Source of the DNA: a virus
Lineage: Duplodnaviria > Heunggongvirae > Uroviricota > Caudoviricetes
IMG/VR virus record: IMGVR_UViG_2802429217_000003
Length of the DNA: 42,375 nt
Direction: 5' to 3' (one strand)
Shown: one piece after another, positions 18,001 to 21,000 of the stretch
How positions within the stretch are numbered: position 1 is the first letter of the stretch
How the letters are laid out: each line of letters begins with the position of its first letter
Made by a program: the position numbers

Positions 18001-21000
18001 TAATTACTGTCATAACATTAAAAAGTAGCGGATGTATTCCTCCGCTACATAACTTATACTCAAGGAGTGATTATATTGAATATTTTCAAAGCCTGTGGGG
18101 GCATCAATGTCCGCTCTTCGCTCAAAGCGGACTAAAATGTTGGCTTGTGTCTGACTCAGCGCATTTAAGGAAGTGGTGGTGGTGACGGGGTGTTGTGTCC
18201 CATTTCCACAGAATAAATCAGAGAAACTATAGCGGCTGTAATGGCAATCTATGGTCTTGCTATTGCTCTTATGGATCACCTTTCTGATTGATTTCATATT
18301 GGCGAGGTAACGGGAGTTAAGTAGAATAGCTGCGGGTGCTTGAGGCTGTCTGCCTCGGGCATGAACACCAAAGGCAGATAGAGAAAAGCCCCAGTTAACA
18401 TTACGCGTCCGGCAAGACGCTTAACATTAATCTGAGGCCACATCTATGCTTTGCATACGTAGATTAGCCTCTTACCGACCAAAAGGTCAAGGAGAAGCAG
18501 GCTATGAAGCAGCAAAAGGCGATGTTAATCGCCCTGATCGTCATCTGTTTAACCGTCGTTGTGACGGCACTGGTAACGAGGAAAGACCTCTGCGAGGTAC
18601 GAATCCGAACCGGCCAGACGGAGGTCGCTGTCTTCACAGCTTACGAACCTGAGGAGTAAGAGACCCGGCGGGGGAGAAATCCCCCGCCACCTCTGATGTG
18701 TCAGGCATCCTCAACGCACCCGTACTTACCCGCTTCGGCGGGTTTTTTGTTGTGGTGGATAAATTAGCTTTTTGTGTACTCTTTTAGCCGTAAGTCTTGA
18801 GGGACTGACTGTTGTAAATAGAATCGTGTTTGCTTAGTTAGCGCGCAGGGAGAAGAGGGATGGACCCTTCAGGGGAACGCTATTAATCTGGAAAATTTCT
18901 ATTTATGGATTTCAAGAAGTTGCGCAAAATTTTTAATAAAGATGGTCTCTATGCTGTGCGCGTTGAAAATGGGGAAATTATTAGTTGTTACTGCATTCAT
19001 TGCTCACGGGCTTTGCAACAGCCTAGTGGGGCTATGTTAATATATCTCTTGAATGGGCATGTGACGGACGGATTTATGTTGCGTGAAGATGAATTTGTCA
19101 CATCATTACGGACATTAAAAGAAATTGGATTAAAAGCTGGCTTTTCTGCTTTTGAAGACGATTGAACTCATCTACAATTCAGCGCAGGGTTGACCCCCTG
19201 CTGAGTAACACCGTGCCACCGGAGAAAGCCGATGGCACATATACAACTGATCAAACATACCTCTTCTGGATTACTGCTCCCGGCAACACCGGAGAGTTGC
19301 GAATTCTTGCATCAAATAAAAATAGGTGAGTGGATACACGCTGATTTTAAGCGCGTTCGTAACTACGCATTTCACAAGCGTTTTTTCAAACTCCTGCAAC
19401 TCGGATTCGATTATTGGACTCCTGTCGGTGGGGCGATCACCTCTCGTGAACGAAAACTTGTGTCCGGTTTCGTTGATTATCTGTGTGACTCGGTCGGCCG
19501 GGAACATACGCCAGCCCTGAGTGATGCCGCAGAACAATATCTGAATACCATTGCGATACGCAGAACCTGTGATACGGCATTGCTAAAGTCATTTGATGCT
19601 TTCCGTGAATGGGTAACTATTGAGGCCGGATTTTACACCGAGCATTTTTATCCGGACGGTAGCCGTGGACGCAGGGCAAGATCTATCGCGTTTGCAAATA
19701 TGGACGATACCGAGTTTCAGCAGGTTTATAAATCCGTACTGAATGTGCTTTGGAACTGGATCCTGTTCCGTAAATTTTCCTCTCCGGAACAATTCGAAAA
19801 TGTTGCTGCGCAGCTGCTGGAGTTTGCGTAATGGTGGATTTGCGTAAAGCGGCTAAAGGCCATATGTGTACAGTCAGAATCCCCGGTTACTGCAATCACA
19901 ATCCTGAAACATCTGTGCTGGCGCACTACAGGCTGGCGGGGACGTGTGGAATGGCGATAAAACCACACGATATGCAGGCAGCGATTGCCTGTAACTCATG
20001 TCACGATCTAATCGATGGGCGGGTAAAAACCAGCGATTACACCAAAGAAGAATTGCACCTGATGCATGCAGAAGGTGTTTTTCGCACGCAAGAAATCTGG
20101 AGAAATGAGGGATATTTATGATTTACCCAACAAATATCGGAAAAAGCGGGGAACATCTCCGTCTCGCAACACTGGAAAGTGTGTGGATTCAGGGAAAGTT
20201 ACGCATGTGGGGACGCTGGTCGTATATTGGCTGCGGCAGGTCAGGGAATATGTTCAACCAGTTGCTGGTGTCAAAAAAAATAACACAAACAGCTATCAAT
20301 GAAGCCTTGCGCAAAATGAAAAAAGCGGGGATTGATAAACCTGAACTGGAGGAATTTTTTCGGGAGCTGATTAACGGTAAGCAGAAAAGCTGGCTATCCC
20401 ACTGTACTGATGCAGAGGCGTTATGCATTGATCGGGTGATTAGTGAAGTGTTGGCAGAGCATCCAGGATTGATTCACGTACTCCGACAACGGTATGAAGG
20501 ACGGGGGATGACAAAGCGCAAAATGGCTCAATTGCTAAATAACGCACATCCAGAGTGGAGTTTCAGTACATGCGAAAAGCGAATTGCTAATTGGTTAGCT
20601 GTTGCTGAGTATTCTTTATACATTCCCATGCGAGTATCATTTGCTCAGAAAATAGCTTGATTTTTTACGCAAAAACTGCTCTAATTCTGATACGCTTCGC
20701 AAAGCTGTATCGCGAGGTGGATAAAGAAAATCAAATTTAAAAGAACCCGCCACCGAGCGGGTTTTTTTATCCATAAATATAGAATGAATACTAGAAATTA
20801 ACAATTTCTATTTTCTTATGCTGGCTTATTCTGTTGAATGATTCGTGAATCAACTCAGGGATTTTTATCTGATTGAGGTGTTTCATGTTTCGGCATTGTT
20901 AGCTTTTGTAGGCTTTTCCATATATTTATAGATAATTAAACTGGTGCAGTAATTCACCTGAGAAGTTTGCAATCCTCTAATTAACCTTTTTATTTGTATT

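What the first reader, a model, noticed from the sequence alone, without database searches (positions are those of the whole stretch)
18380..18750. hok/mok/sok-type type I toxin-antitoxin locus next to the cargo island
A 51-aa Hok/Gef-family toxin ORF (absent from the ORF track) is overlapped by a mok-like frame. A minus-strand promoter-like element is positioned to make an antisense RNA across the mok start. A GC-rich GNRA-loop hairpin follows the hok stop (18667-18688), then a canonical terminator at 18728-18748. This may stabilise the prophage or island, or act as an abortive-infection element.
Basis: partly seen in the sequence, partly recalled or inferred. Interest (0 to 1): 0.45.

Follow-up and report, generated by a model that had tools for sequence, protein, structure and literature searches.

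The report
Ordinary hok/mok/sok toxin-antitoxin locus

Summary
Window 18299-18750 holds a complete hok/mok/sok type I toxin-antitoxin module.

Parts found:
- A 51-aa Hok/Gef toxin (Pfam 1.2e-23).
- An overlapping 68-codon mok frame with its own Shine-Dalgarno sequence.
- A hok leader that matches Rfam "sok" (105 bits, threshold 59).
- An antisense Sok RNA of about 77 nt. Its -10 box aligns with the experimentally mutated -10 of sokW.
- A GC hairpin after the stop codon, and an intrinsic terminator.

That 5' end pairs with a box 375 nt downstream (tac/fbi), which is the hallmark of hok mRNAs. The fold is supported by covariation across 28 loci from six genera.

The coding part and 3' UTR align almost base for base with K-12 hokD (Qin prophage), which has lost its leader, mok and sok to relBE. 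The locus is about 92% identical to hokW-sokW of Stx2 prophage Sp5, which has been characterised experimentally. RefSeq annotates hokD here, and GenBank annotates mok and hok in a 98.9% identical Rac record. 4,726 of 5,426 complete E. coli genomes have a match.

The molecular mechanism is secure. The physiological role (help with lysis on induction, addiction or phage exclusion) is untested. Novelty: already known. Interest is low.

The parts
18299..18327 (+). hok promoter: -35 TTGGCG (18299-18304), 17-nt spacer, -10 TAGAAT (18322-18327)
   Evidence: Promoter scan. The -10 box TAnnAT is invariant in 10 aligned loci, and the ~100 nt upstream are shared with mEp460-type phage copies.
18334..18750 (+). 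Full-length hok mRNA (~415 nt). The 5' end at G18334 is inferred; the 3' end is at the terminator U-run.
   Evidence: Rfam model position 1 aligns to 18334, 6 nt after the -10 box. MFE -176.1 kcal/mol, z = -7.98. 89.9% of pair cells are kept in 28 loci against ~43% for slid controls.
18334..18345 (+). tac element (GGGUGCUUGAGG), the 5' end that pairs with fbi
   Evidence: Paired with 18709-18721 in the MFE fold. Three covarying pairs, e.g. U-A in 20 loci against C-G in 7. The duplex is predicted in 27 of 28 loci.
18346..18381 (+). 5' stem-loop of the hok leader (10-bp stem)
   Evidence: Helix 2 is 91.8% paired with 3 covarying pairs.
18388..18394 (+). ucb-like box (GCCCCAG). It pairs with the mok SD region in the full-length fold and with tac in 3'-shortened or nascent RNA.
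   Evidence: Full-length MFE compared with the 5' fragment fold and the centroid of the truncated RNA. Assigning it the role of the R1 'ucb' is an inference.
18378..18454 (-). Sok antisense RNA (~77 nt): a free 5' tail complementary to the mok start region, a long hairpin and a U-rich end
   Evidence: Ends placed by alignment to the annotated K-12 sokC and to the sokW northern probe YO-592 (PMC8621323). Fold -31.8 kcal/mol, z = -4.9. The transcript itself has not been observed.
18461..18490 (-). sok promoter: -35 TTGACC (18490->18485), 18-nt spacer, -10 TAATCT (18466->18461)
   Evidence: Read. The boxes and their spacing are conserved in 28 loci. The homologous -10 of sokW was inactivated by mutagenesis with loss of antitoxin activity (PMC8621323). 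It is below the threshold of the generic scan.
18434..18437 (+). mok Shine-Dalgarno sequence (GAGG)
   Evidence: Sequence. Sequestered by 18388-18394 in the full-length fold. The region is 87% conserved.
18446..18652 (+). mok reading frame (68 codons, +1 relative to hok)
   Evidence: An open frame of 55-74 codons starts at or near the aligned position in 26 of 28 loci, in frame 0 or +1. Annotated as mok in GenBank MN652886.
18442..18464 (+). Sok-target hairpin. Its loop CUUUGCAUA carries a YUNR motif (UUUG) complementary to the Sok 5' end and spans the mok AUG.
   Evidence: The sequence here is the least conserved part of the locus. The U-turn role is an inference from R1 hok/sok.
18490..18494 (+). 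hok Shine-Dalgarno sequence (AGGAG)
   Evidence: Sequence. Nearly invariant in the family.
18504..18659 (+). hok toxin gene (51 aa; hokD type)
   Evidence: Pfam HOK_GEF 1.2e-23. RefSeq WP_001406927.1 'toxin HokD' in 100% identical DNA. One residue differs from K-12 HokD (I19V).
18642..18645 (+). TACG motif at Tyr47, the TadA A-to-I editing site (Tyr to Cys); the edited A would be 18643
   Evidence: TACGAA is present in 28 of 28 loci. Editing of K-12 hokD at the equivalent codon is reported in PMC5630033 and PMC12214031. Not measured for this copy.
18667..18688 (+). GC-rich 3' UTR hairpin (9 bp, GAAA loop)
   Evidence: Helix 16 is 95.7% paired with 2 covarying pairs.
18709..18721 (+). fbi element (CCUCAACGCACCC), which pairs with tac
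   Evidence: Homology with plasmid-borne copies ends exactly here (query position 422 = 18721).
18728..18750 (+). Intrinsic terminator of the hok mRNA
   Evidence: Terminator scan: 6-bp stem with 5 GC pairs, a UUCG loop and a T-run.

Best explanation
Window 18299-18750 is an intact hok/mok/sok type I toxin-antitoxin cassette. It is the full-length form of the locus known in K-12 as the 5'-truncated hokD (relF). It sits in the moron slot between the replication genes and rem/Q of a Rac-type lambdoid prophage.

How it works, by homology to plasmid R1 hok/sok and prophage hokW-sokW:
1. A constitutive promoter makes a stable mRNA of about 415 nt. Its first 12 nt (tac) pair with a box near the 3' end (fbi). 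In this closed form the mok ribosome-binding site is sequestered, so neither ribosomes nor Sok can bind.
2. Slow 3' trimming removes fbi. The 5' end then re-pairs locally, exposing the mok Shine-Dalgarno sequence and a target hairpin.
3. A short, unstable antisense Sok RNA (~77 nt, 18454->18378) pairs through its free 5' tail with the mok start region. This blocks mok translation and therefore the coupled hok translation, and the duplex is cut by RNase III.
4. When Sok supply stops, the stable mRNA pool is translated. The 51-aa Hok inserts into the inner membrane and collapses the membrane potential.
5. TadA editing of Tyr47 (UACG) to Cys probably modulates toxicity.

Shown here: all sequence elements, the end-pairing and its covariation, and homology to validated loci.
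Inferred: the transcripts themselves, 3' processing, translational coupling and toxicity.

The most likely role (about 0.4) is the one shown for hokW-sokW: the locus is silent in the lysogen, Sok is lost on RecA-dependent induction, and Hok production speeds killing, lysis and phage release.
For: - Toxin: Pfam HOK_GEF 1.2e-23.
- Leader/sok region: Rfam RF01794, 105 bits against a gathering score of 59.
- Annotation: 100% identical DNA is annotated hokD in RefSeq. mok and hok are annotated in the 98.9% identical 'Escherichia phage Rac' record MN652886.
- K-12 hokD: near-identical from the hok SD to the terminator, with relBE replacing the upstream part.
- End-pairing: the MFE fold of the full transcript contains the 12-bp tac/fbi pairing, z = -8.
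- Covariation over 28 loci from Escherichia, Kluyvera, Pseudocitrobacter, Photorhabdus and Pantoea: 89.9% paired against ~43% for slid controls, and 31 pairs with double changes against 7-13. The tac/fbi helix has U-A to C-G, A-U to G-C and G-C to A-U swaps. The duplex is predicted in 27 of 28 loci.
- Refolding: tac pairs with ucb and the mok SD is released in the 5' fragment and in the centroid of the truncated RNA.
- Sok: folds as a free tail plus a terminator hairpin, z = -4.9.
- sok promoter: the boxes are conserved. The homologous sokW -10 was validated by mutagenesis, and sokW and hokW RNAs were seen on northern blots (PMC8621323).
- mok: the frame is kept open in 26 of 28 loci.
- R1 mechanism as reviewed in PMC4147584.
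- HokD is toxic in assays (10.1101/2025.08.07.668861). Editing of hokD is reported in PMC5630033.
- hok is co-oriented with, and upstream of, rem and Q in the window, Rac 442/2, mEp460 and K-12 Qin.
Against: - No expression data exist for this copy.
- The sok -10 matches the consensus at only 3 of 6 positions and fails the generic promoter scan.
- The MFE of the arbitrarily truncated RNA shows an alternative long-range pairing rather than the tac/ucb fold. Only the centroid and the 5' fragment show that fold.
- The Sok-target hairpin is only 62% paired across the family.
- The role in induction comes from one study of a 92% identical locus in a different phage. The effects there were modest: a 2-fold change in phage release and a 40-min shift in growth arrest.
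Confidence: 0.9

Rival explanations
1. Same cassette, but its role is addiction (post-segregational killing). Cells that lose the prophage, or delete the adjacent cargo slot, are killed because the stable hok mRNA outlives Sok. This stabilises the prophage or the neighbouring Mrr/STAND gene.
For: This is the classical function of plasmid hok/sok (PMC4147584). All elements needed for differential RNA stability are present. hok lies directly beside a variable cargo slot. hok is enriched about 4-fold in prophages (10.1101/2025.08.07.668861).
Against: Chromosomal hokA, hokB and hokC loci did not mediate PSK (cited in 10.1101/2025.08.07.668861). hok is resident in this slot whatever the cargo: Rac 442/2, mEp460 and Qin carry different neighbours. 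The STAND gene also occurs elsewhere without hok. Deleting hokW-sokW had no phenotype in uninduced lysogens (PMC8621323).
Confidence: 0.2
2. Same cassette, but its role is abortive infection. When a lytic phage shuts off host transcription, Sok decays, Hok kills the cell early, and the lysogen population is protected.
For: R1 hok/sok is reported to exclude T4 (the phage-defence role is cited in 10.1101/2025.08.07.668861). Prophage moron slots often carry defence genes, and the neighbour looks like one (Mrr_cat + nSTAND1).
Against: Hok has no PADLOC hit. The survey found no enrichment of hok near defence systems (10.1101/2025.08.07.668861). Chromosomal loci were not activated by rifampicin, a transcription shut-off (same source). 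No phage-challenge data exist for hokD- or hokW-type loci.
Confidence: 0.15
3. The cassette is a selfish or neutral passenger with no current benefit to phage or host. It persists because it travels with lambdoid modules, or it is effectively silent.
For: It is extremely common and multi-copy: 4,726 of 5,426 genomes, median 2 and up to 10 places per genome. Decayed copies are frequent: K-12 Qin and a Kluyvera copy truncated by relBE, a degenerate 5' end in L009, a frameshift in L036, and mok ATG changed to ATA in L027. K-12 chromosomal copies are regarded as inactive (PMC12214031).
Against: This copy has every element intact. The RNA structure is maintained by compensatory changes across genera. 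The synonymous TAC Tyr codon and the following GAA are invariant in 28 of 28 loci. The mok frame is kept open in two different frames. All of these indicate purifying selection on regulation, not just on the peptide.
Confidence: 0.2
4. It is not a toxin-antitoxin locus at all: a chance small ORF in an intergenic region with fortuitous hairpins.
For: None, beyond the fact that the ORF is short and that no generic minus-strand promoter is called.
Against: Pfam 1.2e-23, Rfam 5e-23, fold z = -8, covariation and thousands of annotated homologues.
Confidence: 0.01

Closest known systems
hokW-sokW of Sakai prophage 5 (Stx2 phage), E. coli O157:H7 (Takada et al. 2021, PMC8621323)
   Same: It is also a lambdoid prophage locus. 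A Stx2 converting phage I copy that matches the paper's primers is about 92% identical in DNA over 89% of the query. tac, the Sok hairpin, the mok SD, the hok SD and fbi are 100% identical, and the hok CDS is 94% identical. The Sok-hairpin insertion and the sok promoter position are the same. The published primers and probes nearly match the window.
   Different: The Sok 5' tail/target segment is only 59% identical, so cross-regulation is unlikely. mok is in frame with hok in hokW (70 codons, same stop) but +1 out of frame here (68 codons), because of a 1-nt indel in the sok -35 (TTGCC against TTGACC). Hok differs at 5 of 51 residues, mostly at the C-terminus. The terminator differs. It sits in a different phage type with different neighbours.
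hokD (relF) of the K-12 Qin cryptic prophage
   Same: The DNA is almost base-for-base the same from the hok Shine-Dalgarno sequence through the CDS, 3' hairpin, fbi and terminator. The protein matches at 50 of 51 residues. rem lies downstream and the orientation toward Q is the same.
   Different: K-12 lacks the promoter, tac, leader, mok start and sok, which are replaced by the 3' end of relBE. The window has the complete ancestral architecture. The same relBE-truncated form also occurs in another E. coli and in a Kluyvera (L010, L024).
hok/mok/sok (parB) of plasmid R1, the founding member
   Same: The gene layout is the same: an out-of-frame mok overlapping nearly all of hok, antisense Sok across the mok start, tac/fbi end-pairing, a 3' UTR hairpin and a terminator. 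Both belong to the same Pfam and Rfam families.
   Different: The proteins are distant: HokW, 90% identical to this Hok, shares 44% identity with R1 Hok (PMC8621323). The context is a prophage rather than a plasmid. The Sok hairpin is longer: the window carries extra bases in the loop relative to the Rfam consensus. PSK has been demonstrated for R1 only.
hokC/mokC/sokC (gef) of the E. coli chromosome
   Same: The leader is about 80-90% identical, with the same element order. The annotated sokC was used to place the Sok ends.
   Different: hokC lacks the 18-nt insertion in the Sok hairpin. Its mok is in frame. The K-12 copy is cut by IS186 just after the 3' hairpin. It is a core-chromosome site next to nhaA, not a prophage.

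Membership tests
[quoted passage not shown] | A Hok/Gef toxin of about 50 aa with an N-terminal transmembrane helix and a conserved Cys | tested here: met
   HOK_GEF 82.9 bits, E = 1.2e-23, covering profile positions 1-42 of 42. Cys15 and Cys30 are present.
[quoted passage not shown] | A mok reading frame with its own SD that starts upstream of hok and overlaps most of it | tested here: met
   18446-18652, 68 codons, with GAGG 8 nt upstream. An open frame of 55-74 codons is kept in 26 of 28 relatives.
[quoted passage not shown] | A conserved, structured hok leader containing the sok region | tested here: met
   RF01794 at 105.2 bits against a gathering score of 59, full model 1-157. The model is on the hok-sense strand.
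[quoted passage not shown] | A cis-antisense Sok RNA with its own promoter inside the mok 5' region, complementary to the mok translation-initiation region | tested here: inconclusive
   The promoter boxes, spacing, 5' end and terminator hairpin are positionally homologous to the validated sokW and the annotated sokC (PMC8621323). However, the promoter fails the generic scan, and the transcript cannot be observed with these tools.
[quoted passage not shown] | Pairing of the mRNA 5' end (tac) with a 3' box (fbi) that locks the full-length mRNA | tested here: met
   12-bp pairing in the MFE fold. 91.7% paired with 3 covarying pairs in 28 loci. The duplex is predicted in 27 of 28 loci.
[quoted passage not shown] | Refolding triggered by 3' processing that exposes the mok SD and the Sok target | tested here: inconclusive
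   The 5' fragment and the centroid of the truncated RNA show tac paired to ucb (18386-18392) and the mok SD released. The MFE of the truncated RNA shows a different pairing. The real processing site is unknown.
[quoted passage not shown] | Hok is toxic and Sok neutralises it; the duplex is cleaved by RNase III | not testable with these tools
   Known only from the literature on homologues: HokD and HokW are toxic, and sokW antitoxin activity depends on RNase III and Hfq (10.1101/2025.08.07.668861; PMC8621323).
[quoted passage not shown] | Post-segregational killing | not testable with these tools
   Not a requirement for membership. Chromosomal members failed this test in earlier work (cited in 10.1101/2025.08.07.668861).
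hokD subtype (RefSeq 'type I toxin-antitoxin system toxin HokD') | Near-identity to K-12 HokD and its 3' UTR | tested here: met
   50 of 51 residues match, and the DNA is near-identical from the hok SD to the terminator. RefSeq names the identical gene hokD.
TadA-edited hok mRNAs | A Tyr codon TAC within UACG at the position equivalent to HokB residue 46 | tested here: met
   TACG at 18642-18645 (Tyr47). TACGAA is invariant in 28 of 28 loci. Editing itself was not testable here, but is reported at about 6% for K-12 hokD (PMC12214031).

The most novel reading that the evidence does not exclude
The only segment that differs sharply between this locus and hokW-sokW is the Sok 5' tail and its target loop. 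It is 59% identical, against 94-100% for nearly all other elements (80-86% for the sok promoter region and the 3' hairpin). In addition, a 1-nt indel inside the sok -35 box flips mok between in-frame and out-of-frame. This could reflect diversifying selection that keeps co-resident hok/sok paralogues (up to 10 places per genome) from cross-talking. Each prophage would then carry a private kill switch that reports only on its own induction or loss. A weaker variant of this reading is that hok acts as the guardian of the adjacent variable cargo slot.
Probability: 0.15. Interest if true: 0.4.

Novelty: already known. Interest (0 to 1): 0.1.

Why it matters
It matters little beyond correct annotation.

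- The cassette is one of the best-understood antisense-RNA systems and is present in most E. coli genomes.
- RefSeq annotates only the hokD CDS here, so mok, Sok, tac/fbi and the TadA site could be added.
- This copy shows what the K-12 'hokD' locus looked like before relBE replaced its 5' half.
- It offers a natural full-length hokD-type locus in an apparently complete Rac-type prophage. That could be used to test whether the induction-coupled role reported for hokW-sokW holds more generally.

Tried and rejected
1. The generic sigma-70 scan for the sok promoter found no minus-strand site. I therefore placed the promoter by homology to sokW and sokC rather than by consensus.
2. Folding an arbitrarily 3'-truncated mRNA (18334-18708) was meant to reproduce the R1 refolding model. 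The MFE gave a different long-range pairing. Only the centroid and the 5' fragment gave the expected tac/ucb fold, so I report this as consistent with the model but not demonstrated.
3. PADLOC scans of Hok and the four cargo ORFs gave no hits, so there is no computational support for calling the neighbourhood a known defence system.
4. A literature search for the GenBank Rac record MN652886 found no paper. A search for Rac/hok/lygF/irsA found nothing specific to this locus.
5. The idea that the GNRA loop of the 3' hairpin is a conserved feature was rejected. Relatives keep the stem but have other loops.
6. The idea that hok and the STAND gene form one unit was rejected. The junction is rare (7 genomes), while each part is common on its own.
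7. I did not use the large protein-database searches, structure prediction or fold search. A 51-aa peptide with a Pfam E-value of 1e-23 did not need them.
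Full report
**What is in the sequence**

The region reads as the first-stage reader described.
- A 51-codon ORF at 18504-18659 (+) encodes MKQQKAMLIALIVICLTVVVTALVTRKDLCEVRIRTGQTEVAVFTAYEPEE. It matches Pfam HOK_GEF over the whole profile (82.9 bits, E = 1.2e-23, cut-off 22).
- A 68-codon frame at 18446-18652 overlaps it in the +1 frame. It is preceded by GAGG at 18434-18437.
- After the hok stop there is a 9-bp GC-rich stem with a GAAA loop (18667-18688).
- An intrinsic terminator follows (stem 18728-18743 plus six T).
- The Rfam scan of the whole window gave two hits at gathering score. One is RF01794 'sok' at 18334-18509 (+), 105 bits against 59, E = 5e-23. That model lies on the hok-mRNA strand, since its last positions align to the hok AUG. 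It therefore proves homology of the leader/sok region, not the existence of an antisense transcript.

**Where the locus really begins**

- A promoter-like site (TTGGCG 18299-18304, 17 nt, TAGAAT 18322-18327) sits 6 nt before G18334, where Rfam model position 1 aligns.
- The -10 box (TAnnAT) is invariant in ten aligned relatives. About 100 nt further upstream is shared with mEp460-type phage copies.
- The first 12 nt, GGGUGCUUGAGG (18334-18345), are complementary to CCUCAACGCACCC at 18709-18721, with one bulged C.

**RNA architecture**

- The 417-nt transcript (18334-18750) folds to -176.1 kcal/mol, z = -7.98 against dinucleotide shuffles. The MFE structure contains this 5'-3' pairing. This is the tac/fbi lock that defines hok mRNAs.
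- In the same fold, the mok Shine-Dalgarno region (18432-18438) is paired with GCCCCAG (18388-18394).
- In the 5' fragment, and in the centroid of a 3'-shortened RNA, the 5' end pairs instead with 18386-18392, and the mok SD is released from 18388-18394 into a shorter local helix. This fits the R1 refolding model.
- The MFE of my arbitrary truncation showed another pairing, so I treat refolding as consistent with the model but not shown.

**The antisense side**

Reading the minus strand gives -35 TTGACC (18490->18485), an 18-nt spacer and -10 TAATCT (18466->18461). The generic scan does not call it, because the -10 has only 3 of 6 consensus matches. Three lines of homology place it.
1. Alignment with K-12 hokC/sokC, where sokC is annotated, puts the Sok 5' end at the complement of C18454 and the 3' end near 18378.
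2. In the hokW-sokW study (PMC8621323), the 'promoter-less' mutagenesis primers YO-421/422 change AGGTTA (that is, -10 TAACCT) at exactly the aligned position. That mutation unmasked HokW toxicity.
3. Their sokW northern probe YO-592 ends at the position equivalent to C18454.

The resulting 77-nt RNA folds into a free 5' end, a long imperfect hairpin and a U-rich end (-31.8 kcal/mol, z = -4.9). The free 5' end (GCAAAG...) is complementary to the loop of a hairpin (18442-18464) that spans the mok AUG. That loop, CUUUGCAUA, contains a YUNR motif.

**Test by comparison**

I collected 36 loci encoding relatives from one genome per species, plus phage copies. I aligned 28 intact ones from Escherichia, Kluyvera, Pseudocitrobacter, Photorhabdus, Pantoea and unnamed Enterobacteriaceae.
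- **Whole fold.** Mapping the window's own MFE structure onto this alignment, 89.9% of cells form standard pairs against 40-46% when the 3' partners are slid by 1-3 columns. 31 pairs show changes on both sides against 7-13 in the slid controls. No shuffle out of 500 reached the observed values for four of the five measures. The structure was derived from one member, which inflates the percentage paired, but the compensatory counts are not explained by that.
- **tac/fbi helix.** It has U-A in 20 loci against C-G in 7, A-U against G-C, and G-C against A-U. A duplex of -18 to -25 kcal/mol is predicted in 27 of 28 loci. The exception has a degenerate 5' end.
- **sok promoter.** The boxes keep constant spacing: -35 TTGACC or TTGCC, -10 mostly TAAYCT.
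- **mok.** An open frame of 55-74 codons starts at or near the aligned ATG in 26 of 28 loci.

**Identity and distribution**

- Megablast finds the 461-bp region in 4,726 of 5,426 complete E. coli genomes, with a median of 2 and up to 10 places per genome. The 100% identical copies are annotated 'type I toxin-antitoxin system toxin HokD'.
- The context in an identical genome shows that the window is a Rac-type lambdoid prophage at ttcA: intR, xisR, ralR, recET, kilR, sieB, repressor, replication genes, cargo, hokD, a small rem-like ORF, DUF1367, DUF1364, a Q-like gene, lysis and structural genes.
- GenBank MN652886 ('Escherichia phage Rac' from strain 442/2) is 98.9% identical and already annotates both mok and hok.
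- K-12 hokD in the Qin prophage aligns almost base for base from the hok SD to the terminator. Upstream it has the end of relE instead. The window therefore carries the complete form of a locus that K-12 has in truncated form. The literature likewise describes hokD as inactivated by rearrangement (PMC12214031).
- The locus is also in 110 phage records, including Stx phages and mEp460, and in 605 plasmid records.
- In Rac 442/2, mEp460, Qin and the window, hok lies immediately upstream of rem and is co-oriented with Q. Just upstream of it is a slot whose content varies.

**Closest characterised relative**

A Stx2-phage copy of the hokW type, matching the primers of the Sp5 hokW-sokW study, is about 92% identical.
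- Element by element, tac, the Sok hairpin, both SDs and fbi are 100% identical, and the CDS is 94% identical. The Sok tail/target segment is only 59% identical.
- mok is in frame with hok in hokW and hokC, but out of frame here. The cause is a 1-nt indel that also changes the sok -35. In this respect the window resembles plasmid R1.
- Takada et al. (PMC8621323) showed several things. HokW is toxic, and sokW counteracts it in a manner dependent on RNase III and Hfq. Both RNAs are present in the lysogen. sokW disappears after mitomycin C, and HokW then appears in the inner membrane in a RecA-dependent way about 1 h before the endolysin. Deleting the locus delays growth arrest by about 40 min and halves released phage.

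**Mechanism and role**

The molecular mechanism I commit to is the canonical one reviewed in PMC4147584.
1. The stable, end-locked mRNA is inert.
2. 3' trimming opens it.
3. Sok blocks mok translation and hence the coupled hok translation, and triggers RNase III cleavage.
4. Loss of Sok lets Hok be made, which depolarises the membrane.

The elements and the end-lock are shown here. Transcripts, processing, coupling and toxicity are inferred from homologues.

For the physiological role my estimates are about 0.4 for induction-coupled killing and lysis help (by analogy with hokW), 0.2 for addiction, 0.15 for abortive infection and 0.2 for no current function.
- Against addiction and abortive infection: earlier tests of chromosomal hokA, hokB and hokC found no post-segregational killing and no rifampicin activation, and hok is not enriched near defence systems (10.1101/2025.08.07.668861).
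- Against a mere relic: the regulatory RNA structure, the open mok frame and even synonymous sites are conserved across genera.

**An extra regulatory layer**

Tyr47 is encoded by TAC within UUACGAA (18641-18647). TACGAA is invariant in all 28 loci, although the Tyr and Glu codons have synonyms. This is the TadA recognition motif. A-to-I editing that recodes this Tyr to Cys has been measured in K-12 hokD, hokC and hokE (PMC5630033; about 6% for hokD, PMC12214031). In HokB the corresponding Cys pair forms a disulfide bond needed for full toxicity (PMC12214031). The site is therefore conserved here, but editing of this copy was not measured.

**Neighbourhood**

- The gene just upstream (15307-18003) has an Mrr-type nuclease domain and an nSTAND1 NTPase domain and gets no PADLOC hit.
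- Beside it is a split IS30-family transposase.
- The STAND gene plus hok arrangement is found in only 7 genomes, while the STAND gene also occurs elsewhere without hok. It is therefore an independent cargo insertion next to a resident hok, not part of the TA unit.

**Verdict**

The finding is an ordinary, already annotated member of one of the best-known type I toxin-antitoxin families. Its only modest value is as a complete hokD-type locus in an apparently complete Rac-type prophage.

Noticed in passing
window 1552-1730 (+): There is a full-length Rfam hit to RalA (190 bits, gathering score 170), the sRNA antitoxin of the RalR DNase toxin. RefSeq annotates ralR in the identical prophage. This prophage therefore carries a second, unrelated type I toxin-antitoxin system near its int end.
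   Followed up: no
window 15307-18003 (+): An 898-codon ORF (853 aa in RefSeq, called 'restriction endonuclease' or 'nSTAND1 domain-containing NTPase') has an Mrr_cat nuclease domain (aa 43-142) and an nSTAND1 NTPase domain (aa 273-448). It has no PADLOC hit. It looks like an Avs-like STAND defence candidate. It is found next to hok in only 7 of 5,426 genomes but also occurs in other contexts.
   Followed up: partly
window 13952-15081 (-): An IS30-family transposase is split into an rve ORF (13952-14548) and an HTH_38 ORF (14575-15081). This is a decayed insertion sequence inside the cargo slot. RefSeq marks the equivalent gene as frameshifted.
   Followed up: partly
window 12153-13757 (+): A 534-codon ORF in the cargo slot has no Pfam hit and no PADLOC hit. 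The otherwise identical genome NZ_CP019280 has IS1 here instead.
   Followed up: no
window 18642-18647 (+): The codons for Tyr47 and Glu48 (TACGAA) are invariant in 28 of 28 hok loci from several genera, despite synonymous alternatives. This matches the TadA editing motif reported for hokD, hokC and hokE (PMC5630033). In the predicted full-length fold the edited A sits just 3' of a conserved helix that pairs the hok start-codon region with 18626-18641.
   Followed up: partly
window 18439-18460 and 18485-18490; loci L004, L006, L008 and others: The Sok 5' tail/target segment is the divergence hot spot of the family: mean identity 0.55, and 0.59 against hokW where most other elements are 0.94-1.00. 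A 1-nt indel in the sok -35 (TTGACC against TTGCC) switches mok between out-of-frame (68 codons) and in-frame (70 codons) versions, and both keep a long open frame.
   Followed up: partly
L010 (E. coli ECDA1023) and L024 (Kluyvera sp. CHPC 1.2972): The relBE-truncated form of hokD known from K-12 Qin, with the same upstream relE-end sequence, also occurs in another E. coli and in a Kluyvera genome. The rearrangement is therefore not specific to K-12 and has spread.
   Followed up: no
L009, L027, L036: There are decayed family members. L009 has a degenerate 5' end that cannot pair with fbi (duplex -4.2 kcal/mol). L027 (Kluyvera ascorbata) has ATA in place of the mok ATG. L036 (Shigella flexneri) has a frameshifted hokC-type ORF.
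   Followed up: no
L017 (Acinetobacter idrijaensis, 275-bp contig), L020 (Xanthomonas pisi, 431-bp contig), H31 (Actinobacillus phage vB_Apl-pPE4): Near-identical E. coli-type hok sequences appear in very short contigs of non-enterobacterial assemblies, and in a phage record assigned to Actinobacillus (94.6% identical). These are probably contamination or a wrong host assignment rather than real distribution.
   Followed up: no
window 18797-18824 (+) and 18905-19165 (+): A promoter-like site (TTGAGG, 16 nt, TAGAAT) lies between the hok terminator and an 86-codon ORF that has no Pfam hit. The ORF occupies the position of rem, which is annotated 'prophage antirepressor' in MN652886. The hok-rem adjacency is conserved in Rac, Qin and mEp460.
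   Followed up: no
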